From a virus, in the IMG/VR virus record IMGVR_UViG_3300016665_000824, positions 1-64,000 of that record: DNA of 64,000 bases; one strand, 5' to 3'. Below are positions 50,469-64,000 of the stretch, one piece after another. The position numbers and the translations under genes are program-made. The stretch's first letter is position 1; every line of letters starts with the position of its first letter. Under the pieces are notes generated by a model that was not told the DNA's origin, did not search any database, and was given only the letters and a program-made list of their open reading frames with translations.

Positions 50469-53083
50469 TGGCTTTGCTTCCTCGCTTTACGGCGTTGAGT
50501 TAATGTTGCATTGAGTTTTTTGGCGATCGCGTCAGCAGCATTTACCGACAGGTAATCCACTGCGCTGCCGTTAGTTCCTGAGAAGCTATCGGGGTTTTTG
50601 CCCTTGAATGGAGTTCGACTCCAGAGATCGCCGTCCGACCACAGATCGGTCTTTGGAGTTTTTAGCAGATCTGTATCTACTTTTTTCTTATCTACCTTCT
50701 CTCCCCCAAAACCCAGCTCAGGAGTTCCCAAAGTAACAAGGTGAATTTGTTTAGCAATATAAGTCCCAGCAACATTTCCTTGCGAACCTGTTTTTTGCAT
50801 TGACTCCAAGATGTCCAAAGCCCTTTTTGCTGTTTCTCCACCTTGCTTTAGCCCAATAACAGAAATAGCTGGGTATTCAGTTGAGCTTCCCTCGTATGAG
50901 CTGTTTCCGATAGCGTAAAGTTCCGCAGCCAACTTTACAGCTTCAGGGTCTCGTCCCGCTTTGAGGGTCTTACTCATCACGGCTTCGTAGCTTCTTGCCA
51001 TAGTGTCAATAACACCCATAACCCTGCCCCTAGACTGAGGCGGGAGGGTTCGATCAAAAGAAACCACGTCGCTTTGATCGTAGAAGTCTTTCTCTGCTTG
51101 AGACTGAAGCTTTGATCCGTTACTTTTAATTGATTTGCCCAGAACATCGCTAGGAGTTTCTCCATCTCCTATTGCGATAATGACGCTGGGATTTATTGGG
51201 GTAGGCAAAGTCGTTCGTCCACTTGCTACAATCTCTTGAGCCTCAAGAGCAGACTTCGCTATATTGTTGTTGTATTTAACCCTCGCAGCCACAGCAGCAG
51301 TCACCGTTACTTGACCAAGTACGGCTACAGTATTAATCGCTGCTGCTGTGGGATTGTCTTGATATTTATCCTTGATCGCAGAAACCAGATTCCACGTCTT
51401 TCCTAGCGTTGGGTTTACCGCAGTGATCGCCGCCGCTATTTCTTTTGCCCCCTTGTCGCTAGACTTGCTTCCCGCAACAGAATTAGAGAAAAATCCAAAC
51501 GTCTCGCGGATTTTATCTCTGACCGTGCTATCGGTTAAGTAGTCCTCAATCTCATGCCCCTTGACCGAGCTGACAAACTGCGAAAACCTCTTAGGCAGGA
51601 TTGAGAAAGGATCGTTTTTGGAGGTAATAGTGCGGTTGTTAATGTTCGCCCAGTTCTTGTCGTCTTGAGTTGTGCCACCCGTCAAACCGAAGGATGCACC
51701 GCCAAGTCTGGCGATATTGAGGCGCTTCAGAACTTCTCCACCATCAAGCCCCCTAGCAGGCTTGATCCGACTCAAAATTTCGGCAGCTTCATCAACAACG
51801 TTGCCCCCAGAACCGTGACTAACTACGTTCAAAGGCTTGTCACGATACTTAGAGCCATAAGCATACAATTTAGAAGCCAGATCCACCGCAGCTTCGTTTC
51901 TGCCACCGACAATATTGCTTAGATATTTGCCAAAACTTTCTTTAGCTACATACCCCAGATACAAGGGATTGTAGTTCCCGTTTTTATCCTTTGGGAGAAT
52001 ATCGGTTGGAGGAACATTAAACTCCGAATTGTTGAAGGGGATGACCTGCTGGGTCTTGTTAAACCACTGTTCCCGTTTTGAAGTGTCAAGCGGAGTTTTT
52101 AAATATTCAGCGAGCTTATCACCAGAAGAGCCAAGGTTGGAAAATCCTCCTACAGCAAAAGTTAGTTGAGGTTTGGAGGTTGGCTCGACAGGAGTAGTTT
52201 GTGCTCTTTGGTACGCCATTAGCGCCGATTCAGGCAAGCCTTCTTTGTAGCGATCGCGAGCGGTCATCATTACCGATGAGGGAATGCCCAGCAGTACGCT
52301 TGCCGCTAATATGCCTGCCGCAGGGCGATTGTCTCCAAAAAACTTGCTAATCTTTTCGATATCTTTCCATGCGCCAGCAACGGGTTGGGGTAGCAAACTC
52401 TTAAGAGCTTTCTTGCTAGACTCTGCGCGATTCAAGCCTTCACGAACAATCTTCTGGCGATCGGGATTGGCTTTTTGCAGGCGAATTGATTCTCGCAATT
52501 GAGCCTGACTCATATACGAGTAGCGATACACGCCTCGTTTGCGAGCTTCTTCCTTTAATTCCCGAATATTCTTGTTATCAAGATCGTCCTCAACTGGGGC
52601 AACGCCAACAAATTTCGCTTTTTGAACTTGGTTTACCGCATCATTCAGATCGGAAATCTCTTGTCTATTTAAAGCTTCAGGAACGTCAATACGGCAGGTG
52701 TCCGTCTTTGCAATACAAGCGCCTTTGCAGGATAGTCCAACCTTACAGTTCTTGGGCTTAGAAATTTTATCGGTACGTTGACCGATATTGTTTGCATAAG
52801 CAAGTAAGTACTGATCTGCGTCAGTATCTACTGCATCAGTGCGACCATCCTGTACCTGCTTATACTCAATGCGATCTCCTAATTCCAGCCGAATCAGCTT
52901 TTGATCCTTGTCATCATCACGAAACAGACAAGTGATAAGCCCGTCATTACCGATATTGATATTAAGGATCTGATCGATACTCCCGTAGGCGCGAGAAATA
53001 ATGCGAGTTAATAGCCTCGCAATCGTTCTTCTTGCGGCGAGAGGATCTGTGGTTTGAATTGGTGGTGGTGCGATCGCGTACAT
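50465..53083 (-). CDS. large modular protein (872 aa) with N-terminal Cys motif; function unknown
   Basis: N-terminus ...NCKVGLSCKGACIAKTDTCRID; Ala/Val-rich hydrophobic segment; VSHGSGG motif mid-protein. Confidence 0.75.
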   Translation of the reverse strand: MYAIAPPPIQTTDPLAARRTIARLLTRIISRAYGSIDQILNINIGNDGLITCLFRDDDKDQKLIRLELGDRIEYKQVQDGRTDAVDTDADQYLLAYANNIGQRTDKISKPKNCKVGLSCKGACIAKTDTCRIDVPEALNRQEISDLNDAVNQVQKAKFVGVAPVEDDLDNKNIRELKEEARKRGVYRYSYMSQAQLRESIRLQKANPDRQKIVREGLNRAESSKKALKSLLPQPVAGAWKDIEKISKFFGDNRPAAGILAASVLLGIPSSVMMTARDRYKEGLPESALMAYQRAQTTPVEPTSKPQLTFAVGGFSNLGSSGDKLAEYLKTPLDTSKREQWFNKTQQVIPFNNSEFNVPPTDILPKDKNGNYNPLYLGYVAKESFGKYLSNIVGGRNEAAVDLASKLYAYGSKYRDKPLNVVSHGSGGNVVDEAAEILSRIKPARGLDGGEVLKRLNIARLGGASFGLTGGTTQDDKNWANINNRTITSKNDPFSILPKRFSQFVSSVKGHEIEDYLTDSTVRDKIRETFGFFSNSVAGSKSSDKGAKEIAAAITAVNPTLGKTWNLVSAIKDKYQDNPTAAAINTVAVLGQVTVTAAVAARVKYNNNIAKSALEAQEIVASGRTTLPTPINPSVIIAIGDGETPSDVLGKSIKSNGSKLQSQAEKDFYDQSDVVSFDRTLPPQSRGRVMGVIDTMARSYEAVMSKTLKAGRDPEAVKLAAELYAIGNSSYEGSSTEYPAISVIGLKQGGETAKRALDILESMQKTGSQGNVAGTYIAKQIHLVTLGTPELGFGGEKVDKKKVDTDLLKTPKTDLWSDGDLWSRTPFKGKNPDSFSGTNGSAVDYLSVNAADAIAKKLNATLTQRRKARKQSQ

Positions 53084-53085
53084 GA

Positions 53086-54492
53086 CTATTTTTTAGCTTG
53101 CTTCTGGTTTTCTTCTTCCGCCTTGTTTATGGCGTGGGCTGCGAGAGCTAGAGATCCAGCAGTTGCCGCAACGTTCGCTCCGATCGCGCCAGCAACAGAT
53201 GCTCCGCGACCATGACCACGCGATCGTAAAGCTCTGTAAGTGCCGCTACCGATCGGCCCAGCCAGCGCCTGTACCGCCCCCTTTCCAAAAGCTTTGGCAG
53301 TCTCCCCAGCACAATTCTTTTCTTGAGGAATACAGATCTTTCCGCAAGGCTTAGTACCTGAACCGCACTTTGCGTCTTCACGAAGCTGCTCGACGAATGA
53401 GTCGATGCGCTCATCTAAGGATTCGTATCGACGACTTGTTTTATTCCACACTCTATTTGTAGTCATATTCGCTCTTCTAATTCGTTTTGGCATCTCCCTC
53501 CGAGTTGTTTTAACCTCAGATGCTTTTACGTCTACCGTATTATTCTTGTCAACAAAAGTCTGCATAAAACTTCTAGCGAAATTGTCTACGGCGTTAAGAG
53601 TTGATCGGGTGGTAGATCCCGCCTTTTTTGCCGCCTCGTTTAGGTCGATAGTTTTGTCGGCAAGATTCTTCCTCGCGACGCGATCGCGTTCTAGCCTTTC
53701 TTTTGTTTTTCGATACAACTTACCCGCCGCCGCACCTGCGGAACCAGCAGCTCTTGTTAATAGTGGCTTCTGAGGTTCGGCGATCGCACTACCACTACTC
53801 TTGCCCGATTCACTCGCAGCAATAGTTAATCCACCAGTAGATACCTTGGAAGCAGGAGGGTTGTATGGCAGTCGAGTTGGAGGTGGGGGTGTAGGAGTTT
53901 CAGGTTTATTGACGGGGACTAGTGCTCCACCGATTTCTGGCTTGGGCTTGGGTGATGGAAGGCGATCGGGCGGGGCTAGCCTCCTGCTTTCTATCTCGCC
54001 TTGCCGAGCTGCTTCTCGCTCAAGATCTTTCTTAGCCTTATATCGAAAATACTCCTCTTCTGCCGCAGCTTCCTCTGCTCTCCACCGCGCCCTCCGAGTT
54101 TCGCTATCCTTTTCGCCAGCCTTGTTTGCGCCCTTCTCGATAATGGGGCGAAGACCTACGGTGATGGCTTTATTCGCAATTACACCTGCGCCGAGTGATG
54201 CGGCAGTTCCACCGACCTTGATCGCCGCTTTCTTAGCAAACTCACCAACCTTATTGGGAGGTGACTGAGGAAGTATAGAAGCAGGCTCCGTCACAGGGAT
54301 AGGCTTCTGTTCTTCTGGCTTCTTCCTTAGCGCGATCGCTGCTGCCCCCAACCCACCCAAGGCAAGTGCAGCGCCAACACCCGCAGCCCCTTTCTTTGCT
54401 GCACTGGCATTGCGGAAGTATGAATAAGCCTTACGTCCATTTTGCGCTGGGACTTTAACTTCTACCTGTGCGTCCTGTCTTTCAGTACTCAT
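53086..54492 (-). CDS. modular protein (468 aa) with Gly/Ala-zipper helix, Pro-rich linker and C-terminal Cys motif
   Basis: GAAGVGAALALGGLGAAAIA near N-terminus; PSPKPKPE...PETPTPPPPTRLP linker; CGSGTKPCGKICIPQEKNCAG; ATGA coupling. Confidence 0.75.
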   Translation of the reverse strand: MSTERQDAQVEVKVPAQNGRKAYSYFRNASAAKKGAAGVGAALALGGLGAAAIALRKKPEEQKPIPVTEPASILPQSPPNKVGEFAKKAAIKVGGTAASLGAGVIANKAITVGLRPIIEKGANKAGEKDSETRRARWRAEEAAAEEEYFRYKAKKDLEREAARQGEIESRRLAPPDRLPSPKPKPEIGGALVPVNKPETPTPPPPTRLPYNPPASKVSTGGLTIAASESGKSSGSAIAEPQKPLLTRAAGSAGAAAGKLYRKTKERLERDRVARKNLADKTIDLNEAAKKAGSTTRSTLNAVDNFARSFMQTFVDKNNTVDVKASEVKTTRREMPKRIRRANMTTNRVWNKTSRRYESLDERIDSFVEQLREDAKCGSGTKPCGKICIPQEKNCAGETAKAFGKGAVQALAGPIGSGTYRALRSRGHGRGASVAGAIGANVAATAGSLALAAHAINKAEEENQKQAKK

Positions 54493-54875
54493 CTGTTTGG
54501 CATCCTCGTTAAAATAATTTCCCAGCTAAAACTTTTGTTCTCAATAGTCCCCATTACCTCATTACACTTGATCGAACCATCGACAATGTAATACTTGCCC
54601 TTGCCCGTAAGCTGAGCCTCGGTGTATGCCGCAGATATACCGCTCACCTGATAGTCGTCAATACCAACCTTGATATTAGTGCTTTCAAACAAGGCGACAG
54701 TACGAGGGTTAACCCGTAGAATCGTGGGGTGAGGCAATATCTCTAGCCTTGTTTCTCCCGACGTAGTGCGAGTCACTACTGTTAATGGCAGCACATTAGG
54801 CGCACCGATCGCATCTCCTGCTAGGCGATCGCGCAGTGGTTGAAGTTTGGCAATAATCTTTGAGGCTAGTGACAT
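54489..54875 (-). CDS. hypothetical head-tail region protein (128 aa)
   Basis: ORF. Confidence 0.6.
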   Translation of the reverse strand: MSLASKIIAKLQPLRDRLAGDAIGAPNVLPLTVVTRTTSGETRLEILPHPTILRVNPRTVALFESTNIKVGIDDYQVSGISAAYTEAQLTGKGKYYIVDGSIKCNEVMGTIENKSFSWEIILTRMPNR

Positions 54876-54902
54876 ATCGCTATTGTTTGATGCTCACAAG
54901 CA

Positions 54903-54939
54903 AACAGGCGATCGCTTGATGAATTAGCGATCGCCTGTT
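54903..54939 (-). terminator. 13-bp perfect stem hairpin built from two HIP1 sites (intra-operon attenuator candidate)
   Basis: AACAGGCGATCGC ttgatgaatta GCGATCGCCTGTT. Confidence 0.45.
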
Positions 54940-54968
54940 AGATCTCCTTGTACACATGGCACATGAGG

Positions 54969-55388
54969 CTAGAAGGCAATGAATGGTGGCACGGCAGGGA
55001 TACTGTCACCCATAAAACCGCCCGTTAGAACCAATTCCTTAAGCATTAGAAATTGCTGCCCATAGGTGGTTCGAGATAGATACACATCGGAGAATCTGCC
55101 ATTACCGTTTGCGGGGGTGGAGGTTCTCCGATTAGACATAGACTCACCAGTGTCGATCGCCTTAGCATTTGACACAGTGACAGTACCTTCCTCGGTATTG
55201 AGCGCCAAATAGTGAGCAGTCAGCAACATTACCGCCATTTCCGCATTGTCACCCCACTCTTCAATCGAGCAAAACCGCGAATAGAAATTCAGCCAGTTCT
55301 GGATAAAGATCAGCGACTCCCCAACAAAGTCAGAGAATGCTGCCTCGGAAGTGAAAGTATCTGCGGAAACGACGGGGTATGTTGCCAT
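54969..55388 (-). CDS. putative head-tail connector/adaptor-like protein (139 aa)
   Basis: size and position; ...MAVMLLTAHYLAL segment resembles phage head-tail adaptor families (weak). Confidence 0.55.
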   Translation of the reverse strand: MATYPVVSADTFTSEAAFSDFVGESLIFIQNWLNFYSRFCSIEEWGDNAEMAVMLLTAHYLALNTEEGTVTVSNAKAIDTGESMSNRRTSTPANGNGRFSDVYLSRTTYGQQFLMLKELVLTGGFMGDSIPAVPPFIAF

Positions 55389-55392
55389 GTAT

Positions 55393-56019
55393 TTAGACTG
55401 TTTCTACGTGAGCTCGTTCAGCACTGCGGAGGCTTTCCAGTTCATCATTCTTGATCTCTTCGAGTCTCGCCTTAATTGCACGGGCAATCTCTGGACGGGC
55501 TTGAGATTCACGACCATGCCAAAGCTCCAACTCAGCCTTGTCGTAGGAAGCCTTAATCAGAGCCTTCGCCTTTTCGGGGGTGAAGTGAATCGACATTGCC
55601 GTATCGTTGGCAATACCTTCAATATCTGCGCGATCGGGGGTAAGGATTTCTAGAACACCTTCTTTAATGAGGCGTTCAAGGTGCTCGGCGCTAGGACGAT
55701 GAGATTGGATGGCGCGAGCTGTTTCGAGAGGGATTTGATTGGGGCCAAAGTTAATCCAGATATCAGTCAAGGGCAAGGAACTCATTCCCTTGGGCACGTT
55801 AATATCGGCAAGAATATCCTTGGCGCGATCGGTTGGAGGGTATTGGAGATTGATTGGCGCGTTATTGCGAGTTTCATTGTGCTTAAACGACCAAACCACA
55901 TAAGCATAGGGATCTTCGGTCTTGTATTCTGGCTCTGCGACAGAAGGGTCCAAGACGGCGGTTGTAGATTTTGCCTTGGGAACCTTAATTTCGGTTGTTG
56001 GAGTAATATCTTCTGGCAT
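55393..56019 (-). CDS. hypothetical head-tail region protein (208 aa; major tail protein candidate)
   Basis: position only. Confidence 0.55.
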   Translation of the reverse strand: MPEDITPTTEIKVPKAKSTTAVLDPSVAEPEYKTEDPYAYVVWSFKHNETRNNAPINLQYPPTDRAKDILADINVPKGMSSLPLTDIWINFGPNQIPLETARAIQSHRPSAEHLERLIKEGVLEILTPDRADIEGIANDTAMSIHFTPEKAKALIKASYDKAELELWHGRESQARPEIARAIKARLEEIKNDELESLRSAERAHVETV

Positions 56020-56029
56020 GATTTCTTCT

Positions 56030-56467
56030 TTAAGCTGGGAGGTAAAGGATATCTGATTTTGGTTTTTGAAGAGCGTTGCTTTTGGCTACATACTCATAAA
56101 GCTTGGTAATGGGCACTGCTTCGGCATGGGATTGACTATCCCAACCAACGTGCATCACCACGATCGCCTCAGATGGGTTGTAGCTACTTAGCGCTGTATG
56201 AGCTTCGCCCTGAACACCATCTGCCTGCTCTCGTAGTGCTTCTGGGTACATAAACCTTGCAATTACACCGAACTGATCGCTAATGCAGGACATAACAATG
56301 CCCTTCTCGCCAATATGGTTTCTATTGGCGTGGAGCAGGGTTTCAGCGTGGTTCTTGATTACAACATCGAATTCATCGGCGATCGTGCCGACAATTACGC
56401 GATCGCAATAGGCAAAGTTCCGCAGAAGCGGTGCGTTGAGGAGGAGATGATCAGGGTTTTGTTTCAT
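56030..56467 (-). CDS. hypothetical head-tail joining protein (145 aa)
   Basis: ORF. Confidence 0.6.
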   Translation of the reverse strand: MKQNPDHLLLNAPLLRNFAYCDRVIVGTIADEFDVVIKNHAETLLHANRNHIGEKGIVMSCISDQFGVIARFMYPEALREQADGVQGEAHTALSSYNPSEAIVVMHVGWDSQSHAEAVPITKLYEYVAKSNALQKPKSDILYLPA

Positions 56468-56528: not shown

Positions 56529-57440
56529 TTACAATCCGTGCAACCAGAGTACGGAGTAGGGACGCTTGATAATCAAGCCGCCGTACTTCATACGGGCGGT
56601 GCGCTGCATCCCACGAGGAAGCTCAATCCACTTCTTGAAGGAGAAAGGCTCGGTAATGCGGAACTTGATTTTGTTCGGATCGCGCTTGTAGTAACAAGCA
56701 ACGTTAGAACCGCCATCACCAACACCTTCGAGAGGGAGTAAGGGGAAGTAATCCTTAATGTAAGTTGCCTTACTCAAGTAGTAATCAAGAACAGAATCAC
56801 TGTTGAAGTCACTGAGACGACGGAAGCTGATTTCATCGTGAGTTGCCTGAGCAAACAAGATCGTGTCAGGGGTCTCAATATTGCGGGTCAAACGACGCAT
56901 GGCGTTGCCAGTGTTGTTCAATACCGCAAGAAGCTGAGCTACCGTAGCATTGCTGTCAAAAGCGTATGCAGAGTAGGACTTCAAAGTATCAGGATGGTTG
57001 AAGAAACCGCGCAATTGACCGTCACCCAAGAACACCATCTTGTCGAGGTATTGTTGACCTGCTTCAAGCACGATCTGGACTTTTTCCGCCTCAATGCCAG
57101 TACCAAACTTTTGAGAAAGTTCGATTTCTTTGTCATTAAGGGTATAAGCACCAATATGCTCAGAAACTCTTTGGCGGAATTCTCTCGACACGATCTCGAC
57201 GTTAGGAACGTGAGTGGTGTAGTCGCGAGCAGCTTCCCACCGACCGATACCAGTTACCTTGCGATAGCCAGTTTCTTCGAGTTCAGGTTTGTTCCAATCT
57301 TCGCGAGGAAGGAGAGTGCCGTTAGCCCAGTAAAGCTGTTCGTACTCTTCTTTTTCGAGAGACTGTTCTAGTTCGACGAGCTGCTCTTTGAAGTAGCCCA
57401 CCGACCAATCATCATTCTTAATTTCAGTAGCTGTGGTCAT
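56529..57440 (-). CDS. putative major capsid protein (303 aa)
   Basis: start refined to ATG 57440 (GGAGGAG upstream); track ORF N-terminal 96 aa is readthrough overlapping the upstream gene; abundance terminator follows. Confidence 0.6.
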   Translation of the reverse strand: MTTATEIKNDDWSVGYFKEQLVELEQSLEKEEYEQLYWANGTLLPREDWNKPELEETGYRKVTGIGRWEAARDYTTHVPNVEIVSREFRQRVSEHIGAYTLNDKEIELSQKFGTGIEAEKVQIVLEAGQQYLDKMVFLGDGQLRGFFNHPDTLKSYSAYAFDSNATVAQLLAVLNNTGNAMRRLTRNIETPDTILFAQATHDEISFRRLSDFNSDSVLDYYLSKATYIKDYFPLLPLEGVGDGGSNVACYYKRDPNKIKFRITEPFSFKKWIELPRGMQRTARMKYGGLIIKRPYSVLWLHGL

Positions 57441-57450
57441 TGGACTCCTC

Positions 57451-58323
57451 CTAGAAGTTCGCGTAAACTTTGACAACCCTGTTGTTGTTGATGTCGATAA
57501 CAACATCGGAGCGGAAACTGGCGCGGGTCGAAGCGTCGATCGCGCTGTTCGCATTGGTCTTTTGGGCATAACCCTTAGAGCCAGCAGCAACAGAGATATA
57601 AACGGTGTCGGACTCGGCGATACTGGTTTCCAAAGTAGGAACCCAAATACCAGAGAGATCACCCAATCGTCGTTGAACATCAACCGCCAACTGGTTAGCT
57701 TCGTATCCAGCAGTCGCCGCTTCGCCAACCACGTCTTTTTGAACGGAGGTGTTTAGGCGGGTGATGCCGCAGATAGCGGAGATTGCGTCACCACTGTTAG
57801 GAAGGCGAATGCTGCCACCATTGAGAGTTCCAGTCACACGAGGAGTTGTGCCTGCGACCTTGGTGACAAACAATCCAAAGCCAATGCGAGATGGGGCTGC
57901 GGCTGCGGTAGTTGGAGTGGTAGGCACGGTTAAAGGTGCTGCACCGCCACCACTGACGCTCACAAACATCGGGGTATTATCCTTGCGATGAGTGAAGACC
58001 AAAGTTGAGGTGTTATTTACCACCGAGGCAATCTGGCTGGCGCGAAGGTTAGCGCGGAACGCTGCGTACAAGCCTGCGGCAAGGTCGGCGCGAACAGTTG
58101 AAGCGGTGGTAAAAGAGAAGGTGATTGGGTTATCGGAGGTATCAGCATCATAGATAGTGATGCTGTACACAGTGGCTGTAACGGGAGTTGCAGGAGTTGT
58201 AACCGTCCAAACTTCCTTAACGTAGCCACTGTCATTGTGATAGGCTTCAACAGAGCCAACACCCATGCCCTCAACCATTCCAGCGAGAGCCTGTGTGTAA
58301 TACTGGCGATAATTCTTTTGCAT
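57451..58323 (-). CDS. putative head protein (290 aa; Thr/Ala/Val-rich, decoration or second capsid component)
   Basis: ORF between protease/scaffold-like and capsid-like genes. Confidence 0.6.
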   Translation of the reverse strand: MQKNYRQYYTQALAGMVEGMGVGSVEAYHNDSGYVKEVWTVTTPATPVTATVYSITIYDADTSDNPITFSFTTASTVRADLAAGLYAAFRANLRASQIASVVNNTSTLVFTHRKDNTPMFVSVSGGGAAPLTVPTTPTTAAAAPSRIGFGLFVTKVAGTTPRVTGTLNGGSIRLPNSGDAISAICGITRLNTSVQKDVVGEAATAGYEANQLAVDVQRRLGDLSGIWVPTLETSIAESDTVYISVAAGSKGYAQKTNANSAIDASTRASFRSDVVIDINNNRVVKVYANF

Positions 58324-58336
58324 TGTTTAGTTGCTC

Positions 58337-59827
58337 CTATTTTCTAGTGGAACGAGCTAAGGGTTTGGAGTAGTTCTTGCCGTAGCGCTCGTTATTGCGT
58401 TCTGCGGCATCCTTCTTCTCCTCGGAATCTTTACGCTCAGTGCGACCAACCTTTACGGCGGTCTCTAGGCGATCTGCGTAGCTAGGCGCAGGAACAAGAG
58501 TTGCGTACTCAGCCGCGCTATCGAAACGGGCTTCGATGTAGCTATCGTTGCGATCGCTTAAATCAACTTCAGGATGAATAGCCTTCAGTGCAGCGCGACG
58601 AATCTCGGTGGAGTCCATCGTGGTTTCGATACCTGCATCCTCGATGTTGATACCCTTAGAGGTAAGAAGGTCGTGAGCCTTGCCAATTGCATCGAGGCGA
58701 TCGGCAGTCTGGCGATTGATTTCTTCAGCGAGGAATTCACGGACTTCATCGGAGTCAAGAACGACTGCCAACTCAGAAGAGTCCATCTTCTTGCCCTTCT
58801 TCATCTTTTTCTTGATGAAGTCAGGCATCTTGCTTTCACCCTCGGATTCCTCATCGTCAGGCTCGCCTTCGCCGTCTTCCTTGTCACCACAAGAAGCATC
58901 CTGACGGATAGTTTCGAGTTGAGTTAGGGTTTCGGTTAGCTCATCTTCAAGAGCGTCAGCACGACCCTTGGTGCGATTAACTTCGGAAGTAAGGTCGGCG
59001 ATCGCGTCAGCCTTCTCTTTGAGTTCAGCCTCAAGAGAATCCACGCGAGACTTATATTTAGATAGTTCTTCGAGTTTTTGCGACAGGGGGTAGAGCGCGA
59101 TGTCCTCCACCTGAAACTCGCCAGCGCCATCCACGCGCAATGTTTTTGTTTTCAAATCGGACATAGCGGAGCTACCCTCATTTTTAATTGTTGGAATAAC
59201 GACAACGCTGTTCGGAGCAGAGGCTTTAACTTGGATCGAGTCAAAGCGAACTAGCTCAACAACCTCATCCCCATCGGCATCGGCACTATCGAGGTGCATC
59301 CTCACAGTGCTCCCCCCGCGTGGGTTGTCAGTTGCGGCGCAATGGTCTGGTCGAATCTTGGTTTGAACACGGTCAAAATCGCCCCGATAGGTGATCTGGT
59401 CGATCGCGTCGAACCATTCGCCATTCGGGGCTTCTACGATTTCGCATTCATATCCAAGAGAAAGACCGTTCTTTTTGCCTGCCTTTACGGACTGGGCAAA
59501 ATCGGGGTTAGAGATTCGGGCAATATTCTGTACAACCCCCTCGTTATCGTTGTACTCACCCGCCCTTGTTAATTCACCAACAGCGCTATCTCGTTTTCCC
59601 CGCAATAGCGAAGATGGATGCTCGACAGTCATCGGCAATCCTTTTAGGGACTCAAGGAAATCGCGATCGCGGTTTGCCGAAGCAGGTCGCAATTCACGAA
59701 CTCGCTTTCCGTCACCTCGAAAGTATGTCAATATGCCGTCTCGACAAACCGTGCTGTACGCATACAGCCCGTCCGCACGTTCTTCAGTGCGGGTCGCGAA
59801 ACTTACGTCATCAAAACGAAATGCCAT
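58337..59827 (-). CDS. putative prohead protease / scaffolding fusion protein (496 aa)
   Basis: globular N-terminal ~190 aa, then acidic coiled-coil region (EELSKYKSRVDSLEAELKEK..., DKEDGEGEPDDEESEGE); first gene of the operon. Confidence 0.55.
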   Translation of the reverse strand: MAFRFDDVSFATRTEERADGLYAYSTVCRDGILTYFRGDGKRVRELRPASANRDRDFLESLKGLPMTVEHPSSLLRGKRDSAVGELTRAGEYNDNEGVVQNIARISNPDFAQSVKAGKKNGLSLGYECEIVEAPNGEWFDAIDQITYRGDFDRVQTKIRPDHCAATDNPRGGSTVRMHLDSADADGDEVVELVRFDSIQVKASAPNSVVVIPTIKNEGSSAMSDLKTKTLRVDGAGEFQVEDIALYPLSQKLEELSKYKSRVDSLEAELKEKADAIADLTSEVNRTKGRADALEDELTETLTQLETIRQDASCGDKEDGEGEPDDEESEGESKMPDFIKKKMKKGKKMDSSELAVVLDSDEVREFLAEEINRQTADRLDAIGKAHDLLTSKGINIEDAGIETTMDSTEIRRAALKAIHPEVDLSDRNDSYIEARFDSAAEYATLVPAPSYADRLETAVKVGRTERKDSEEKKDAAERNNERYGKNYSKPLARSTRK

Positions 59828-59934
59828 TGGCTAATTCAACTTAGGTCAATGGCATTACTTTCTTGTTTTGTCAAGATGAATATTCGGTTTTATGGAAATT
59901 AGCGATCGCTTTTCTTTAAATACGCTCAATACCG

Positions 59935-59952
59935 CCACAAATCCACCACAAA
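59935..59952. promoter_or_regulatory. CCACAAA-N4-CCACAAA motif in divergent control region
   Basis: CCACAAATCCACCACAAA between the virion operon start (59827) and + strand regulator (59991). Confidence 0.5.
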
Positions 59953-59990
59953 GCCACGTTTCAATGCGAAAATCCGAGTAGAGTTACCAG

Positions 59991-60554
59991 TTGAATATGG
60001 CAGTAAAAAGTAAAGTCAAGCTCGGCGCGTATATCGGGCGAAGGCTGGAGCAGGAACGTACCGATGCCGATTACGGTCAGCAAGAAGTCATTAATGAGAT
60101 CCACAGAATAACGTCATCCCCAGAAGTTATTGCTGCGCTAGAGATATCTGTCGCCGCAAACCTAACCAAGTTTCGAGAGTTTCGAGGCAAACGCCAGAAA
60201 GATTTAGCCGCAGATCTAAACAACTTGCGCGATACCTTGCATGGCGTAGGTATAGATACTGAAGTGTCTGGCGATGTGTCTTGGATGTCTAAGGTTGAGA
60301 ATAGCGATCGCATCATGCAGGCGGTCGAACTACGACTCTTTAGCCTTGCTTTGGGTGTTCCGATGGAGGCATTTTTCCCTAATGAGTTAAACGTACTAGC
60401 AGAAAGTAATGACCCGTTCGCCCCTTACCGATATCTGGGACGCAGTATCGAGGGTATTCAAAAGTATCGACATGTCAGCGATCGCAACAAAATTGCGATC
60501 GTTTATTGTTCAGAAGGGTTGTCTTTACCTGATGGTGTGGGGAAATATCTATGA
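59991..60554 (+). CDS. putative HTH (XRE-like) DNA-binding regulator (187 aa)
   Basis: divergent from virion operon; segment LTKFREFRGKRQKDLAADLNNLRDTL resembles an XRE-type helix-turn-helix; start TTG 59991 or ATG 59997. Confidence 0.5.
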   Translation: MNMAVKSKVKLGAYIGRRLEQERTDADYGQQEVINEIHRITSSPEVIAALEISVAANLTKFREFRGKRQKDLAADLNNLRDTLHGVGIDTEVSGDVSWMSKVENSDRIMQAVELRLFSLALGVPMEAFFPNELNVLAESNDPFAPYRYLGRSIEGIQKYRHVSDRNKIAIVYCSEGLSLPDGVGKYL

Positions 60555-60784
60555 GTGTTTATTCAAGCCCCGAATTCACTGGTACAATCATTCGAGAAAG
60601 CCATGAGAGTGGCGTTTTGCTAGTCACGGTCGTAGAGTTACCAGGGCTAGTCTTAGTGCTCAACTCCCATAGCGAAGAAGAAATCGTATTGCCCCAAGCT
60701 ATTAGATCGTATCTAAGTCTTGAGGAGCAATTGAAGATTAAGCGATCGCGACCCAAAGTCACAGCAGTAAAAATATCCATCTAA
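60551..60784 (+). CDS. HicB/UPF0150-like protein (77 aa)
   Basis: ATGA coupling to upstream gene; ...GVLLVTVVELPGLVLVLNSHSEEEIVLPQAIRSYL matches the DLPGC...T.EEA...A...Y pattern of HicB-type domains. Confidence 0.55.
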   Translation: MSVYSSPEFTGTIIRESHESGVLLVTVVELPGLVLVLNSHSEEEIVLPQAIRSYLSLEEQLKIKRSRPKVTAVKISI

Positions 60785-60812: not shown

Positions 60813-62786
60813 ATGTCCTATGAAGCCCTGCCGTCGGGAAGCTTAGTCAAAGCTCCCATCGATCTGATCGAAACTCATCCACAGAACCCCGCCCCTACAT
60901 CACAGAGGTATAGCGAAATATTGGGGTATCCCGTCAGGGTTGAGGATGCTCAGGTCGAGTCCCTGATTGAACTACTAAGGGCGGAGGGCTACAACCCCAA
61001 TAAGCCTATGCTGCTCAGACCAGTTGGCGATCGCCTCCAAGCCGTTGAGGGCAACCACCGTTTTGTGGCAATGTGGATGCTCACCAAGGTACTCAGAGAG
61101 TTTGAACAGGACTATATTCCCGCGATCGTGGATGAAGATCTATCCGAAGAGGACGCTCTGATTAAGTTGAGTACTCTTAATACTCAGCGCAGGATGGAGG
61201 GTTGGCGGTTAGCTCGATTGGCTTACTACACTTGCGTTGAGAAAGGCATGTCTCAGCCTGAGTATGCGGCAAAGGTGGGATACGTCCTTGAGGGTGGAAA
61301 GCCAAATGGTCCACGGATTTCTAAGTTGATTCAAGCCTGTCGATTTGTTGACTATATTGCTGCCAACTCACCGATTGAAGAACTGCAAGACGTTGAGGCT
61401 TTAACCGAACCTAAGAACGGTTTGTTTAGGTCAGTTGATCGCGTCGTTGAGTTTATGTACCTCGACCAAGAGGACTGGTTATGGATTGCAGAGTTCTACC
61501 TCCGTCATCACATGCAGATCTCGGCAAAACAACGAGTCAACCTAGCCAAGGCGATCAAAGATACAAAGGATTTGCTCAACAGATCTACCTCGTATCCCGA
61601 TCGCTGGAGTCAATGGTTGCGCTGGGAGTATATACGCGGAGAGGTCGCTAGTCAGTGTGCGGCAAACGAGGAGTCCCAATTAGCCAAGAGTTTATTACCC
61701 CAACTAATTTCTGAGGCGAATAAAACCTACGAGTCGGACGACTTGCCATTCATTCACAACTATCACGAAGTTACTGGTAACAGGGTTGAAGAGAAAACTG
61801 CCAATCTCAAGGAGGAATTTCGTGCTGAGTTAATCAAGCAGATCGAAGGGCGTAGTGCCAAGTTTTACAGGCTTGTTGATGTTGCTGAAGCTGCGCGGAC
61901 TGTGATCGATCGCTATGCGTTTATCGATCAGAAGTACGAAAACTTCAAAAAGATCGAAAACACGGTACATATCGAGCAAGAGATTGTTGCGATCGCACCT
62001 CCGACGACCTCAAAGTCAAAATCTACGCCAACAACATCTACGCGATCGCCTGTTGCAGAAACAAAGCCCAAGCTTGATACCGAAAAGCGAGTGTGGATTG
62101 AGGAACAATATCAGCCAAAAGGCATGGTTTCTTCTCTAGAAGATTATGCTTTCCACGGCGGCAAACAGTACGGGCTGATATTCTCCCGTCTTGGCAATAG
62201 CGGCATGGAGGACTTCTTTCAAAATACCGACTATATCTATAGAACGCTTACCGAAGATGGAGTATTCGCACTGATATTGCCGCATAAATATTCCTTCGCG
62301 GTAATTGAGGAGCTTGAGTATAAGGTAGCTAACTCTAGTCGCTTACACCTTCGAGGGTTGGATGGCGGCATATATTCCGATGATGAAAAGCCGAGATTGG
62401 CGATCGCCGCATCAAACCGTACATTGATTCATCAAGAGTACGAAGAATTATTATTGTTCACCACTCAAGACGATACTCCTCTGCCATTGCGATCGCCTCT
62501 CCCTCGGATGGCGCTGGAGCCAGTTCACGATATTCTGACCGCTTTTGGCGACCTGAGCGAGCCGTTCTTAGATCCGTTCGCCTTCAGTGGTGAGGTCGTA
62601 GTCGCAGCAAAAAGTCTTGGGTATCGGTGCGACTATCTCGTACAGACTCCAAACCAGTTGGACTTGGTTACGCGCTGGTGCGATCGGACTGAGTTTCCTG
62701 AGAGTCTACTTAGATTTGCGGAAGAGTTTACTCATTTTGATGAGGCACTGTTTAGTGATCGAGCAACTACTCGTGCAAGATCCTGA
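60813..62786 (+). CDS. ParB-like N-terminal domain protein with C-terminal degenerate N6/N4 DNA methyltransferase-like motif (657 aa)
   Basis: N-terminus ...LLRPVGDRLQAVEGNHRFVAM (ParB/Srx-like); C-terminus FLDPFAFSGEVVVAAKSLGYR resembles MTase motif I with G to A/F changes; no clean DPPY. Confidence 0.6.
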   Translation: MSYEALPSGSLVKAPIDLIETHPQNPAPTSQRYSEILGYPVRVEDAQVESLIELLRAEGYNPNKPMLLRPVGDRLQAVEGNHRFVAMWMLTKVLREFEQDYIPAIVDEDLSEEDALIKLSTLNTQRRMEGWRLARLAYYTCVEKGMSQPEYAAKVGYVLEGGKPNGPRISKLIQACRFVDYIAANSPIEELQDVEALTEPKNGLFRSVDRVVEFMYLDQEDWLWIAEFYLRHHMQISAKQRVNLAKAIKDTKDLLNRSTSYPDRWSQWLRWEYIRGEVASQCAANEESQLAKSLLPQLISEANKTYESDDLPFIHNYHEVTGNRVEEKTANLKEEFRAELIKQIEGRSAKFYRLVDVAEAARTVIDRYAFIDQKYENFKKIENTVHIEQEIVAIAPPTTSKSKSTPTTSTRSPVAETKPKLDTEKRVWIEEQYQPKGMVSSLEDYAFHGGKQYGLIFSRLGNSGMEDFFQNTDYIYRTLTEDGVFALILPHKYSFAVIEELEYKVANSSRLHLRGLDGGIYSDDEKPRLAIAASNRTLIHQEYEELLLFTTQDDTPLPLRSPLPRMALEPVHDILTAFGDLSEPFLDPFAFSGEVVVAAKSLGYRCDYLVQTPNQLDLVTRWCDRTEFPESLLRFAEEFTHFDEALFSDRATTRARS

Positions 62787-62869: not shown

Positions 62870-63595
62870 TTAATCAAAGAATTTTCTAACCGCCGCTTCT
62901 ACATCCTTGTTTGGCATCGGGTAGCACCAAATCGGCATCATCCGACCATTGCAAATCCTTTCTTCTTGTTTGCCAAGAGCCTCGCAAGTAGCTTTGACAA
63001 ATTTTCCTAATGTGGTGCGGTTTTTAGCTGTTACGGGCAAACTCAAAGATTCAGCAATTTCTACGGCTCCCATCCACTTTGTCTCCGAGGCTGGAGCGAT
63101 CGCCTTGATAACAGCCATTGCGTCGTTGATCGCAACATCTACAAGCATTTGACATAAGCGAGGGTCGGAATCAGCAAGCATATCCTTGATCTCAAAGACT
63201 GACTTCGCTGTTTCGAGTGCTATTACACGAGAGGGCAATGCGGGAACAGGAGTGGGGGTAGTAGGCACTGATTGTAACAATGCCTTCGCCTTAGAGAAGG
63301 CTTCAACCAGATCGAGCTTGCTCTGAACAACGGCTACCGTGTTTCGGCTCAGGGTCATTAAAGCGGTCGCTTGGTCTTCGTTGAGTAGCGCAAATTTAGG
63401 AGGGTTCCCTGTCGCCTTTTCGGGGACTCCGATTTTAAATCGGATACCCGCGAACCTTGCTTCAATCATGTCTTGGTACTTCTTGATGTTCCGCATAAAG
63501 CTCTCGTGATCAATCCCAAGTCGCTCGGCAATCAGTCGAGAGTCAACAAGCAATTCGCCATCTTCATTGATGATTGGTACAATACTTTCGGACAT
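62870..63595 (-). CDS. phage regulatory protein, Rha/ORF6N-like (241 aa)
   Basis: N-terminus ...LLVDSRLIAERLGIDHESFMRNIKKYQDMIE... matches the Rha-type DNA-binding pattern. Confidence 0.6.
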   Translation of the reverse strand: MSESIVPIINEDGELLVDSRLIAERLGIDHESFMRNIKKYQDMIEARFAGIRFKIGVPEKATGNPPKFALLNEDQATALMTLSRNTVAVVQSKLDLVEAFSKAKALLQSVPTTPTPVPALPSRVIALETAKSVFEIKDMLADSDPRLCQMLVDVAINDAMAVIKAIAPASETKWMGAVEIAESLSLPVTAKNRTTLGKFVKATCEALGKQEERICNGRMMPIWCYPMPNKDVEAAVRKFFD

Positions 63596-63678
63596 ATAAT
63601 CTACCTTTTCTAGGTTATGTGTTACGCGATCGCACCTTCAAAAACTTGCGATCGCTATCCTTAATATTATACCTTGAT

Positions 63679-63696
63679 CTTGTGGCGATTTTGTGG
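63679..63696. promoter_or_regulatory. TTGTGG-N4-TTTGTGG motif (reverse-complement form of the CCACAAA pair) upstream of the final partial gene
   Basis: CTTGTGGCGATTTTGTGG in the gap between the Rha-like gene and ORF starting 63727. Confidence 0.45.
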
Positions 63697-63726
63697 GAGT
63701 ATTAATAAACGTCACAGGAATTTTTT

Positions 63727-64000
63727 ATGTCTGAATACTATTTATACGGCGATCGCGAAGGTAATGCTCTTGATCGGTTAAAAGCTTCTCGCCCTCAGCT
63801 AATCAATAAGCTTTACTACTGGGCTGGCAAACGGCTTGACTATCGGGTTAAGCATTCGCTTATGGCGGAGCAGGATGTTTCCAAGCAGGTTGATCGATAT
63901 CTAGAGGCGATTGCATTTGCTTCGTCGGAAAAGGATCTGCTAAACACGCTCAACAGTTGGAACCTCCTGTCACCTCAAGAGAAGGCGATTATGGCAAAGC
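63727..64000 (+). CDS. hypothetical protein, 5' partial (runs off window end)
   Basis: ATG 63727, open frame to the window edge; absent from track because no stop codon. Confidence 0.4.
   Translation, partial: MSEYYLYGDREGNALDRLKASRPQLINKLYYWAGKRLDYRVKHSLMAEQDVSKQVDRYLEAIAFASSEKDLLNTLNSWNLLSPQEKAIMAK

What the first reader, a model, noticed from the sequence alone, without database searches (positions are those of the whole stretch)
56529..59990. Head module begins at a divergent control region, with no portal or terminase upstream
The minus-strand operon starts with the protease/scaffold-like gene directly at the divergent region 59828-59990. No portal- or terminase-sized ORF lies upstream of it anywhere in the window; replication, lysis and integrase genes are also not recognisable. 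The packaging genes must lie outside the window, or the genome organisation is atypical.
Basis: partly seen in the sequence, partly recalled or inferred. Interest (0 to 1): 0.45.

Follow-up and report, generated by a model that had tools for sequence, protein, structure and literature searches.

The report
Cyanophage head operon; packaging genes elsewhere
The capsid-gene operon really does start at a divergent intergenic region with no portal or terminase in the window, because this 134-kb cyanophage genome, like its known relatives CL131 and PaV-LD, scatters its packaging genes, and both lie outside the window.

Summary
On the minus strand, a DUF2213 protease/scaffold gene (58337-59827), a cement-like gene (57451-58323) and a PF09950 major capsid gene (56529-57440) follow a 163-169 bp divergent intergenic region (59828-59996).

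No ORF in the window matches a portal or terminase. This was tested with Pfam and PHROGs and with six-frame profile searches.

The window is part of a 134,257-bp circular contig (ENA ERZ27292652 k141_20893), which I walked completely. It holds one portal (PF06381, E 1.5e-57) 13.7 kb upstream of the protease gene, 9.6 kb past the right edge of the window. It holds one large terminase (phrog_2, E 8e-28) 49.6 kb upstream, among replication genes, 23 kb past the left edge.

Mu-F-like and G-like head genes lie 0.7-1.8 kb past the right edge. About 4.8 kb of genes, mostly on the opposite strand, separates them from the protease gene: a weak XRE-like protein, a 77-aa ORF, a ParB-N-like protein, Rha and a 319-aa ORF.

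The closest isolates, Aphanizomenon phage CL131 and Planktothrix phage PaV-LD, show the same split layout, and the CL131 paper already describes it. All 30 related IMG/VR loci that include sequence upstream of the protease gene carry a reverse-strand small gene directly upstream of it.

Verdict: real, explained and ordinary for this lineage. It is a new member of a known kind.

The parts
58337..59827 (-). First gene of the head operon: DUF2213 protease/scaffold-type protein, 496 aa. It has an N-terminal DUF2213 domain (residues 26-177) followed by a coiled-coil, charged C-terminal half.
   Evidence: PF09979 E 1.5e-11 and phrog_530 'head maturation protease' E 6e-45 over residues 1-485. About 28-33% identical to CL131 gp038 and PaV-LD ORF071R.
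57451..58323 (-). Cement or decoration-like head protein, 290 aa.
   Evidence: phrog_33525 E 4e-36. PF22758 'Phage_cement (E217 gp24/Pam3 gp6)' E 6e-4, 20.3 bits, below the 27-bit cutoff. Homologous to CL131 gp039 and PaV-LD ORF072R.
56529..57440 (-). Major capsid protein, 303 aa from the ATG at 57440. The 399-aa TTG ORF listed by the ORF tool is an over-extension.
   Evidence: PF09950 E 1.2e-22 and phrog_264 E 1e-35. Best phage matches are CL131 at 33.9% and PaV-LD at 32.5% identity. The gene call comes from the contig record.
59828..59996 (.). Divergent intergenic region between the head operon (-) and the 185-aa gene (+); presumed promoter and control region.
   Evidence: Sequence. It is 96% conserved in close relatives L021, L022 and L014. 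The ~75 nt next to the protease gene is kept in L023, where an extra ~1 kb ORF is inserted further upstream. The consensus scan found no sigma-70 match, so the promoter is inferred, not shown.
59820..59856 (-). Leader hairpin: a 10-bp perfect inverted repeat, AAUGCCAUUG-N17-CAAUGGCAUU. Its 3' arm contains the AUG start codon (59827-59825). A TTGACA hexamer lies at 59874-59869.
   Evidence: the repeat finder pair I1. RNA fold -18.5 kcal/mol, z -3.2. The arms are invariant and the loop varies in L021, L022 and L023. It is absent from CL131-like and PaV-LD-like leaders, so it is specific to this sub-lineage.
59997..60554 (+). Divergently transcribed 185-aa protein; candidate XRE-type HTH regulator (weak evidence).
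   Evidence: PF13560 HTH_31 E 0.052, below threshold. An 83%-identical homologue is named 'transcriptional regulator with XRE-family HTH domain' by JGI. It occupies the position of CL131 gp037 (HTH_31 E 9e-6) and PaV-LD ORF070L. The AlphaFold model was unusable, pLDDT 38.
60551..60784 (+). 77-aa ORF in the same plus-strand block; function unknown.
   Evidence: Called in the contig record. No Pfam or NCBIfam hit.
60813..62786 (+). 657-aa protein with a ParB/Spo0J-like N-terminal domain. It is not a portal or terminase.
   Evidence: PDB 1vz0 Spo0J E 0.002 over residues 46-158. No Pfam or NCBIfam family. No similarity to the genome's TerL or portal. Conserved next to the 185-aa gene in L021-L023.
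62870..63595 (-). Rha-family regulatory or anti-repressor protein, 241 aa.
   Evidence: PF09669 E 3e-11 and phrog_2657 E 8e-17. Absent from relative L023.
63727..64000 (+). 5' part of a 319-aa ORF cut by the window edge. Its 3' end overlaps the G-like head gene that lies just outside the window.
   Evidence: L003 8910-9869. No family hit at the thresholds used; the only listing was PF13919 at E 0.076, below threshold.
54489..56467 (-). Small head-completion and connector-type genes downstream of the capsid gene: 145, 208, 139 (DUF4054) and 128 aa.
   Evidence: PF13262 DUF4054 E 1.2e-7 and phrog_302 'virion structural protein' E 3e-13 for 54969-55388. The 128-aa protein is homologous to PaV-LD ORF077R.

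Best explanation
The region is the 5' end of the capsid-assembly operon (protease/scaffold, cement-like protein, major capsid protein, then head-completion, internal, tape-measure and tail genes) of a 134-kb circular or circularly permuted cyanophage genome related to Aphanizomenon phage CL131 and Planktothrix phage PaV-LD.

In this lineage the usual contiguous terminase-portal-protease-capsid block has been broken up. The large terminase sits among the replication genes. The portal starts a separate block 13.7 kb upstream. The Mu-F-like and G-like head genes form a further block. An insert of about 4.8 kb, mostly on the opposite strand, separates that block from the protease gene; it holds a weak XRE-like protein, a 77-aa ORF, a ParB-N-like protein, Rha and a 319-aa ORF.

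The protease-capsid operon therefore has to be transcribed from its own start site inside the 163-169 bp divergent region.

Shown: gene identities, orientations, positions, and conservation of the layout in relatives.

Inferred: that the intergenic region holds the operon's promoter; that the divergently transcribed 185-aa protein regulates it; and that the leader hairpin covering the AUG modulates translation.
For: - Head gene identities.
- The window matches ENA contig k141_20893 at 100% identity.
- The whole contig was rebuilt from 9 loci plus the window with 0 mismatches. The coordinate arithmetic gives a terminal overlap of exactly 141 nt, the assembler's k. An independent 85-kb Logan contig spans the junction.
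- There is a single portal at record 109,571-111,226: PF06381 E 1.5e-57, phrog_146 E 1e-74, 27-30% identical to the PaV-LD and CL131 portals.
- There is a single TerL at record 73,768-75,396: phrog_2 E 8e-28; TerL profile E 8e-19 on the nuclease half; 345 phage-record matches, and the 12 best listed lie under annotated terminase genes except one record that has no annotation; Walker A (GLGKT) and Walker B (LIIEDE) motifs are visible in the sequence.
- Mu-F-like (PF04233) and G-like (PF05069, E 7.5e-32) genes lie 0.7-1.8 kb beyond the window edge.
- Relatives:
  - PaV-LD has TerL at 31.5 kb, portal at 35.3 kb and the head operon at 47.3 kb, preceded by the reverse-strand ORF070L.
  - CL131 has its portal at 8.8 kb, the head operon at 34.6 kb preceded by the reverse-strand regulator gp037, and TerS/TerL at 58.3-61.6 kb.
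  - The CL131 paper states that terminase and portal lie on opposite sides of the structural region (PMC6293099).
- IMG/VR loci: 3/3 window-like, 7/7 CL131-like and 20/20 PaV-LD-like loci that include sequence upstream of the protease gene have a reverse-strand small gene directly upstream of it. Two distant relatives (L059, L060) keep the canonical order, with the portal about 1 kb upstream of the protease gene.
Against: - No sigma-70-like promoter was detected in the intergenic region (0 found against 2.3 expected by chance).
- Regulator status of the 185-aa protein rests on a sub-threshold HTH_31 hit (E 0.052) and on position. Its structure model failed (pLDDT 38). Profile comparison with gp037 and ORF070L was not significant.
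- The last 2.5 kb of the contig was not fetched directly, so circularity is inferred from coordinate arithmetic and a second assembly.
- Protease activity of the DUF2213 protein is taken from a family annotation and was not tested.
- The small terminase is assigned only by position (the 195-aa ORF upstream of TerL); it has no family hit.
Confidence: 0.85

Rival explanations
1. One of the unannotated proteins in the window (for example the 657-, 483-, 819-, 662-, 468-, 571-, 735- or 872-aa ORFs) is a highly divergent portal or large terminase, so the packaging genes are present but unrecognisable.
For: Several large ORFs have no Pfam family, and sequence profiles can miss very divergent proteins.
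Against: - The complete genome contains one clear portal and one clear TerL elsewhere, so no cryptic copy is needed.
- Neither has any paralogue in the six-frame translation of the window (best E 0.39).
- The large ORFs are homologous to tail, tape-measure or internal proteins of CL131 and PaV-LD.
- The 657-aa ORF is ParB-N-like.
Confidence: 0.02
2. The element is a defective prophage, a gene-transfer-agent-like cluster or a satellite that lacks its own packaging genes and borrows them.
For: Within the 64-kb window alone there is no portal, terminase, replication, lysis or integrase gene.
Against: - The window belongs to a closed 134-kb contig that carries TerL, portal, DnaB, DnaG, beta-clamp, SSB, ThyX and an M23/SLT peptidase.
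- No flanking host genes are present.
- Near-identical contigs occur in several independent assemblies and in IMG/VR.
Confidence: 0.02
3. The separation of the head genes from the portal and terminase is an assembly artefact (a chimeric or mis-joined metagenomic contig).
For: The source is a short-read k141 metagenome assembly.
Against: - Independent assemblies reproduce the local order: Logan SRR6423794 (L014) and IMG/VR L021, L022 and L023, which show Mu-F, G, (Rha), 657 aa, 185 aa, protease.
- The cultured isolates CL131 and PaV-LD have the same dispersed layout.
- All overlapping loci agree with 0 mismatches.
Confidence: 0.03
4. The divergent intergenic region is not a control region. The head operon is expressed by read-through from a promoter further upstream (for example the Rha promoter at 63596-63726), running antisense across the plus-strand block.
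For: No consensus promoter was found in 59828-59996. Rha is on the same strand as the head operon.
Against: - Read-through would have to cross about 3 kb of convergently transcribed genes.
- In L023 Rha is absent, yet the ~75 nt next to the protease gene is conserved.
- All 30 related loci place a reverse-strand gene directly upstream of the protease gene, so an internal start is the simpler reading.
- Cyanobacterial and phage promoters often do not fit the E. coli consensus (general knowledge).
Confidence: 0.1

Closest known systems
Aphanizomenon phage vB_AphaS-CL131 (MG209611; Sulcius et al. 2018/2019, PMC6293099)
   Same: - Best MCP match (33.9% identity).
- Homologous protease/scaffold, cement-like, MCP, DUF4054, G-like, tape-measure, tail and tail-fibre proteins.
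- A reverse-strand HTH gene (gp037) lies directly upstream of the protease gene.
- The portal and terminase are far from the head genes and from each other, a layout stated explicitly in the paper.
- Large genome, cyanobacterial host.
   Different: - Only about 25-49% protein identity.
- The module order differs: in CL131 the tail genes precede the head operon and TerS/TerL follow the tape measure.
- The CL131 portal is fused to the pilot and Mu-F domains in one 1393-aa protein, whereas here these are four separate ORFs.
- The TerL here belongs to a different family.
- The reverse-strand insert here is 4.8 kb with five genes, not one small gene.
- The genome is 134 kb against 113 kb.
Planktothrix phage PaV-LD (HQ683709 / NC_016564)
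   Same: - MCP 32.5% identical, tape measure 45% and G-like protein 41%.
- The order G, reverse-strand small gene (ORF070L), protease, cement, MCP is shared.
- The portal is homologous (27%, E 1.5e-43).
- A trio of ~215-250-aa genes lies next to the portal.

   Different: - In PaV-LD, TerL sits 2 kb from the portal and both are about 12-16 kb upstream of the head operon. Here TerL is 34 kb from the portal and is not orthologous.
- ORF070L shows no significant similarity to the 185-aa protein.
Head module of Pseudomonas phage E217 / Pa193 and Pseudanabaena phage Pam3
   Same: The same Pfam families are named after those phages: PF09979 (DUF2213, listed as 'Pa193_gp24' in the precomputed table), PF22758 (cement protein of E217 gp24 / Pam3 gp6) and PF13262 (DUF4054, listed as 'E217_gp27').
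   Different: - The cement match is below the curated threshold.
- Those phages are contractile-tailed, with much smaller tape measures (my own knowledge, not tested here).
- Their gene order was not examined here.
Mu-type head gene order (portal, F, G, protease/scaffold I, major head T)
   Same: A Mu-F-like domain (PF04233), a G-like 'virion morphogenesis' protein (PF05069), then protease/scaffold and capsid genes occur in that relative order on one strand.
   Different: - The portal belongs to PF06381. I recall, without testing it here, that the Mu portal belongs to a different Pfam family.
- The protease/scaffold is DUF2213.
- The order is interrupted twice by opposite-strand blocks.
- The terminase is not adjacent.

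Membership tests
CL131 / PaV-LD-like cyanophage lineage (unclassified Caudoviricetes) | The major capsid protein (PF09950) is closest to the CL131 and PaV-LD capsid proteins. | tested here: met
   tblastn against 50,697 phage records: CL131 33.9% (E 3e-36) and PaV-LD 32.5% (E 1e-35) are the top hits; the next best is 27% or lower.
CL131 / PaV-LD-like cyanophage lineage (unclassified Caudoviricetes) | Homology across many structural genes and shared local synteny (protease, cement, MCP, small head genes, tape measure). | tested here: met
   At least 12 CL131 or PaV-LD ORFs match window ORFs at E<1e-4. Examples: tape measure E 2e-122, tail fibre E 6e-110, 819-aa tail protein E 7e-36.
CL131 / PaV-LD-like cyanophage lineage (unclassified Caudoviricetes) | A reverse-strand small gene lies between the G-like gene and the protease/scaffold gene, so the head operon starts at a divergent region. 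| tested here: met
   Seen in CL131 gp037 and PaV-LD ORF070L and in 30 of 30 related IMG/VR loci that include sequence upstream of the protease gene. In the window the corresponding gene is 59997-60554 (+).
CL131 / PaV-LD-like cyanophage lineage (unclassified Caudoviricetes) | The portal and terminase are separated from the head operon. | tested here: met
   The portal lies 13.7 kb and TerL 49.6 kb upstream of the protease gene. Compare CL131 and PaV-LD.
CL131 / PaV-LD-like cyanophage lineage (unclassified Caudoviricetes) | TerL is orthologous to the CL131 / PaV-LD TerL clade. | tested here: not met
   A profile built from 113 PaV-LD-family TerL sequences matches only the nuclease half (62 bits, E 8e-19), against about 700 bits for CL131 and PaV-LD. 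The best phage TerL hits are 25-29% identical and come from unrelated phages. The contig's TerL was not among the 120 best PaV-LD TerL homologues.
CL131 / PaV-LD-like cyanophage lineage (unclassified Caudoviricetes) | The host is a (filamentous) cyanobacterium. | not testable with these tools
   Indirect only. The cyanobacterial HIP1 palindrome GCGATCGC occurs 135 times in the window and 338 times in the genome, against about 1-2 expected by chance.
Canonical contiguous tailed-phage late operon (TerS, TerL, portal, protease/scaffold, MCP) | The portal gene lies immediately upstream of the protease/scaffold gene on the same strand. | tested here: not met
   13.7 kb and two opposite-strand blocks intervene. 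Distant relatives L059 and L060 do show the canonical spacing of about 1 kb.
Canonical contiguous tailed-phage late operon (TerS, TerL, portal, protease/scaffold, MCP) | TerL lies next to the portal. | tested here: not met
   TerL ends 34.2 kb before the portal starts, with DnaB, DnaG, ThyX and methyltransferase genes in between.
Mu-type head module | F-like (PF04233) and G-like (PF05069) genes precede the protease/scaffold and capsid genes. | tested here: met
   PF04233 E 1.1e-8 and PF05069 E 7.5e-32. Both genes lie just outside the window, at equivalent positions 64,672-65,812.
Mu-type head module | Mu-type portal and Mu I-type protease/scaffold families, in uninterrupted order. | tested here: not met
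   The portal hit only PF06381 in Pfam, and the protease/scaffold is PF09979 (DUF2213). That Mu's portal and protease belong to other families is my recollection and was not tested. The order is interrupted by about 4.8 kb.
E217 / Pam3-type capsid gene set | DUF2213 protein, cement protein (PF22758) and DUF4054 protein accompany the capsid gene. | tested here: inconclusive
   DUF2213 and DUF4054 pass their thresholds. The cement family scores 20.3 bits against a 27-bit cutoff.

The most novel reading that the evidence does not exclude
The reverse-strand gene that always precedes the protease/scaffold gene in this cyanophage clade may encode a dedicated switch. Here it would act together with a leader hairpin that buries the AUG of the first head gene. 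Such a switch would time or limit synthesis of capsid-shell proteins independently of portal and terminase expression. The regulator gene seems to diverge beyond recognition or be replaced (three versions with no significant mutual similarity) while its position is kept. In this sub-lineage the slot has also grown into a 4.8-kb island, and a non-orthologous TerL has been placed inside the replication module.
Probability: 0.25. Interest if true: 0.4.

Novelty: new member of a known kind. Interest (0 to 1): 0.2.

Why it matters
It matters mainly for annotation. A 64-kb window of a large cyanophage can look as if it lacks packaging genes when they are simply tens of kilobases away, so synteny-based rules of the form "portal sits upstream of protease" fail for this lineage.

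The analysis adds a complete 134-kb relative of CL131 and PaV-LD with a fully located packaging set. It shows that the break directly upstream of the protease gene, filled by a reverse-strand gene, is conserved across about 30 uncultured relatives. It also shows that TerL has been exchanged for a different family. These points help in classifying freshwater cyanophages and in studying module shuffling, but they do not change current understanding.

Tried and rejected
1. A megablast of 12 kb of the window against the phage collection found nothing. Only protein-level relatives exist.
2. A search with the PaV-LD TerL against the 5.8-billion-protein set listed 120 homologues, none on the 134,398-bp contig. 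The contig's TerL is of another family and was found only by walking the contig.
Passing it first through the listing of cluster members gave ids that were accepted.
4. The two ~230-aa ORFs just upstream of the portal were considered as a split TerL. This was rejected: no TerL profile, PHROG or Pfam match, and the only hits were coiled-coil-type.
5. The 447-aa ORF at record ~65.1-66.5 kb was considered as TerL. It gave only weak P-loop or FtsK-like hits, whereas the 542-aa ORF is the clear TerL.
6. I tested whether the 185-aa protein, CL131 gp037 and PaV-LD ORF070L are homologous. hhalign probabilities were 2%, 16% and 58%, so the result is inconclusive.
7. An AlphaFold model of the 185-aa protein built from an 11-sequence alignment had pLDDT 38. 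It was unusable and no fold search was run.
8. The sigma-70 consensus scan of the divergent region found no sites.
9. I tested whether the AUG-occluding leader hairpin is conserved across the clade. It occurs only in the window's own sub-lineage and not in CL131-like or PaV-LD-like leaders.
10. NCBIfam gave nothing informative. PDB sequence searches gave nothing for the TerL and the protease/scaffold protein, and only the Spo0J match for the 657-aa ORF.

Full report
**What is in the sequence**

The window carries one long minus-strand operon from 59827 down to about 24943. Its first three genes are:
- 58337-59827, 496 aa: PF09979/DUF2213 E 1.5e-11; phrog_530 'head maturation protease' E 6e-45.
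- 57451-58323, 290 aa: phrog_33525 E 4e-36; a weak PF22758 'structural cement protein' match, E 6e-4, below the cutoff.
- 56529-57440: PF09950 major capsid protein E 1.2e-22; phrog_264 E 1e-35.

Small head-completion genes follow, one of them DUF4054. After them come four large proteins with no family assignment, a 2811-aa tape-measure homologue and tail genes.

The gene upstream of the protease gene, 59997-60554, is on the plus strand. So 59828-59996 is a genuine divergent intergenic region.

**Is a portal or terminase hidden in the window?**

No. The evidence:
- Every ORF of 280 aa or more was scanned against Pfam and/or PHROGs without a packaging hit.
- Precomputed Pfam hits for the called genes show none over most of the window.
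- A profile built from 113 homologues of the PaV-LD large terminase, run with filters off against the six-frame translation, gave nothing below E=1. The PaV-LD and CL131 controls scored 1e-212 and 1e-207.
- The phage's own TerL, portal, Mu-F-like and G-like proteins have no paralogue in the window (best E 0.39).

The one portal-sized ORF upstream, 60813-62786 (657 aa, plus strand), has a ParB/Spo0J-like N-terminal domain (E 0.002 to PDB 1vz0).

**Where the window comes from**

The Rha gene at 62870-63595 is found on ENA metagenome contig ERZ27292652:k141_20893, which is 134,398 bp and matches the window at 100% identity.

I fetched overlapping 20-kb loci around successive genes and covered the whole contig. 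Nine loci plus the window assemble with zero mismatches.

The coordinate mapping implies that the first and last 141 nt of the contig coincide; 141 is the assembler's k. The window runs straight across that junction, as does an independent 85-kb Logan contig. The genome is therefore circular or circularly permuted, 134,257 bp, 46% G+C.

It contains 338 copies of the cyanobacterial HIP1 octamer GCGATCGC, 135 of them in the window. The window is the reverse complement of the record.

**Where the packaging genes are**

The genome has exactly one portal and one TerL by six-frame profile search. All positions are record coordinates, and all these genes are on the same strand as the head operon, whose protease gene starts at 124,952.

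| Gene | Record position | Evidence | Position relative to the window |
|---|---|---|---|
| Portal, 551 aa | 109,571-111,226 | PF06381 E 1.5e-57; phrog_146 E 1e-74; 27-30% identical to the PaV-LD and CL131 portals | Ends 13,726 bp before the protease start codon; 9.6 kb beyond the right edge |
| TerL, 542 aa | 73,768-75,396 | phrog_2 E 8e-28 over residues 34-531; TerL profile E 8e-19; 345 phage-record matches, the 12 best listed lying under annotated terminase genes except one unannotated record; Walker A (GLGKT) and Walker B (LIIEDE) motifs | 49.6 kb before the protease gene; 34.2 kb before the portal; 23 kb beyond the left edge |
| Mu-F-like, PF04233 | 118,967-119,677 | | 1.1-1.8 kb beyond the right edge |
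| G-like, PF05069 | 119,670-120,107 | E 7.5e-32 | 0.7-1.1 kb beyond the right edge |

TerL is embedded among beta-clamp, ParB-like, SSB, RusA, MazG, ThyX, dCTP-deaminase, DnaB and DnaG genes. A 195-aa ORF that overlaps the TerL start is the positional candidate for the small terminase but has no family hit.

**What separates the head genes**

Going from the portal towards the protease gene, the order is:
1. Portal, then 74-, 136- and 139-aa ORFs.
2. An opposite-strand block of four genes, one of them tail-fibre-like.
3. A 191-aa ORF, an 860-aa ORF, the Mu-F-like gene and the G-like gene.
4. An insert of about 4.8 kb: a 319-aa ORF (opposite strand), Rha (same strand), and the 657-, 77- and 185-aa ORFs (opposite strand).
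5. The protease gene.

The 191-aa and Mu-F-like proteins and the portal correspond to successive parts of the single 1393-aa CL131 gp012 and of phrog_220 'minor head protein and DNA pilot'. A protein that is fused in CL131 is therefore split and interrupted here.

**Comparison with relatives**

The nearest cultured phages are Aphanizomenon phage vB_AphaS-CL131 (113 kb) and Planktothrix phage PaV-LD (95 kb). Protein identity is only about 25-49%, but homology covers many structural genes.

- In CL131 a small reverse-strand gene (gp037, HTH_31 E 9e-6) lies directly upstream of the protease gene. The portal is at 8.8 kb, the head operon at 34.6 kb and TerS/TerL at 58.3-61.6 kb.
- In PaV-LD the corresponding reverse-strand gene is ORF070L. 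TerL is at 31.5 kb, the portal at 35.3 kb and the head operon at 47.3 kb.

The CL131 paper states that the gene order deviates from the conserved siphovirus order, and that terminase and portal lie on opposite sides of the structural region (PMC6293099).

A scan of IMG/VR with a capsid-protein alignment returned 44 loci. Among those that include sequence upstream of the protease gene:
- 3 of 3 window-like, 7 of 7 CL131-like and 20 of 20 PaV-LD-like loci have the reverse-strand gene directly upstream of the protease gene. Where enough upstream sequence is present, the G-like gene usually lies just beyond it.
- Two distant relatives (L059, L060) keep the canonical order, with the portal about 1 kb upstream of the protease gene.

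The layout is thus a conserved trait of the clade and not an oddity of this contig. This genome departs from its relatives in TerL, which is not orthologous to the CL131/PaV-LD TerL.

**How it most likely works**

Every gene immediately upstream is on the other strand, so the protease-capsid operon must have its own transcription start within the 169-bp region. This is an inference. The E. coli-type consensus scan found no promoter there.

The divergently transcribed 185-aa protein is a weak candidate for an XRE-type regulator. The support is HTH_31 at E 0.052, a JGI name for an 83%-identical homologue, and its position matching that of gp037. Its structure model was unusable, and profile comparison with gp037 and ORF070L was not significant.

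The mRNA leader can form a 10-bp perfect hairpin whose 3' arm contains the AUG (dG -18.5 kcal/mol, z -3.2). The arms are invariant in three close relatives while the loop varies. The hairpin is absent from CL131-like and PaV-LD-like leaders, so at most it is a feature of this sub-lineage.

**Verdict**

The packaging genes lie outside the window, and the organisation is atypical for tailed phages in general but typical of, and already published for, this cyanophage lineage. This is a new member of a known kind and of low interest.

The residual open point is whether the conserved reverse-strand slot upstream of the protease gene is a dedicated switch for head-gene expression.

Noticed in passing
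window 59820-59874 (minus strand): The protease/scaffold mRNA leader forms a 10-bp perfect hairpin (AAUGCCAUUG-N17-CAAUGGCAUU) that includes the AUG, with a conserved TTGACA hexamer 13 nt upstream of it. Fold z is -3.2. The arms are invariant and the loop varies in three close relatives. It is absent from CL131-like and PaV-LD-like leaders.
   Followed up: yes
outside the window: contig record 73,768-75,396 (L012 15269-16897): The large terminase is embedded in the replication and nucleotide-metabolism module. It is not orthologous to the CL131/PaV-LD TerL: only the nuclease half matches their profile, and the best phage hits are 25-29% identical. This suggests replacement and relocation of the packaging motor.
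   Followed up: partly
outside the window: L007 8345-18451 compared with CL131 gp012 (L004 8800-12981): CL131 encodes one 1393-aa portal + pilot + Mu-F fusion. Here the homologous parts are separate ORFs (551, 191 and 236 aa). Three small ORFs, a reversed tail-fibre-like block of four genes and an 860-aa ORF of unknown function lie between them.
   Followed up: partly
window 46221-54492 (minus strand): Four large ORFan proteins (468, 872, 571 and 735 aa) plus a 112-aa ORF lie between the head and tape-measure genes. They carry repeated Cys-rich motifs (for example C-x-x-GYVQRG-x-x-C, CDRGKPC-x-GEDG-x-TYCIP) and Ala/Gly-rich hydrophobic stretches. The 872-aa protein matches CL131 gp048. They may be internal or ejection proteins.
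   Followed up: no
window 36788-37321 (+): A 177-aa plus-strand gene interrupts the minus-strand structural operon between the tape-measure and tail genes. It is homologous (36% identity, E 2e-22) to PaV-LD ORF068R, which in PaV-LD sits just upstream of the G-like head gene. This is another relocated gene.
   Followed up: no
window 34952-36403 and 24943-25341 (minus strand): The 483-aa protein contains tandem copies of a ~115-aa domain (three stretches by phrog_35535; four tblastn segments with CL131 gp030). The domain is also found in CL131 gp030 and PaV-LD ORF058R, and as a single copy in the 132-aa ORF at the end of the tail module.
   Followed up: no
window 1-24900 (+): About 25 kb of some 60 small plus-strand ORFs (mostly 60-200 aa) have almost no family assignment. 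The only precomputed Pfam hit over 1,233-33,683 is a weak PF25735 Phage_L5_gp82.
   Followed up: partly
whole window and whole contig: The cyanobacterial HIP1 palindrome GCGATCGC occurs 135 times in the window and 338 times in the 134-kb genome, against about 1-2 expected by chance. This points to a HIP1-rich cyanobacterial host.
   Followed up: partly
outside the window: contig record ~54,035-54,918 (L011 5940-6816) and L012 11964-12608: A ParA (CbiA-type) gene and a gene with only a faint RHH-family hit (PF21432), together with a separate ParB-N protein, suggest a possible partition system. No integrase family appeared among the precomputed Pfam hits listed along the contig. Plasmid-like maintenance (a phage-plasmid lifestyle) is possible but untested.
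   Followed up: no
L023 6511-7555: In a 91%-MCP-identity relative, an extra ~1-kb ORF, on the same strand as the head operon, lies between the 185-aa gene and the protease gene, and Rha is missing. The ~75 nt next to the protease gene is still conserved.
   Followed up: partly
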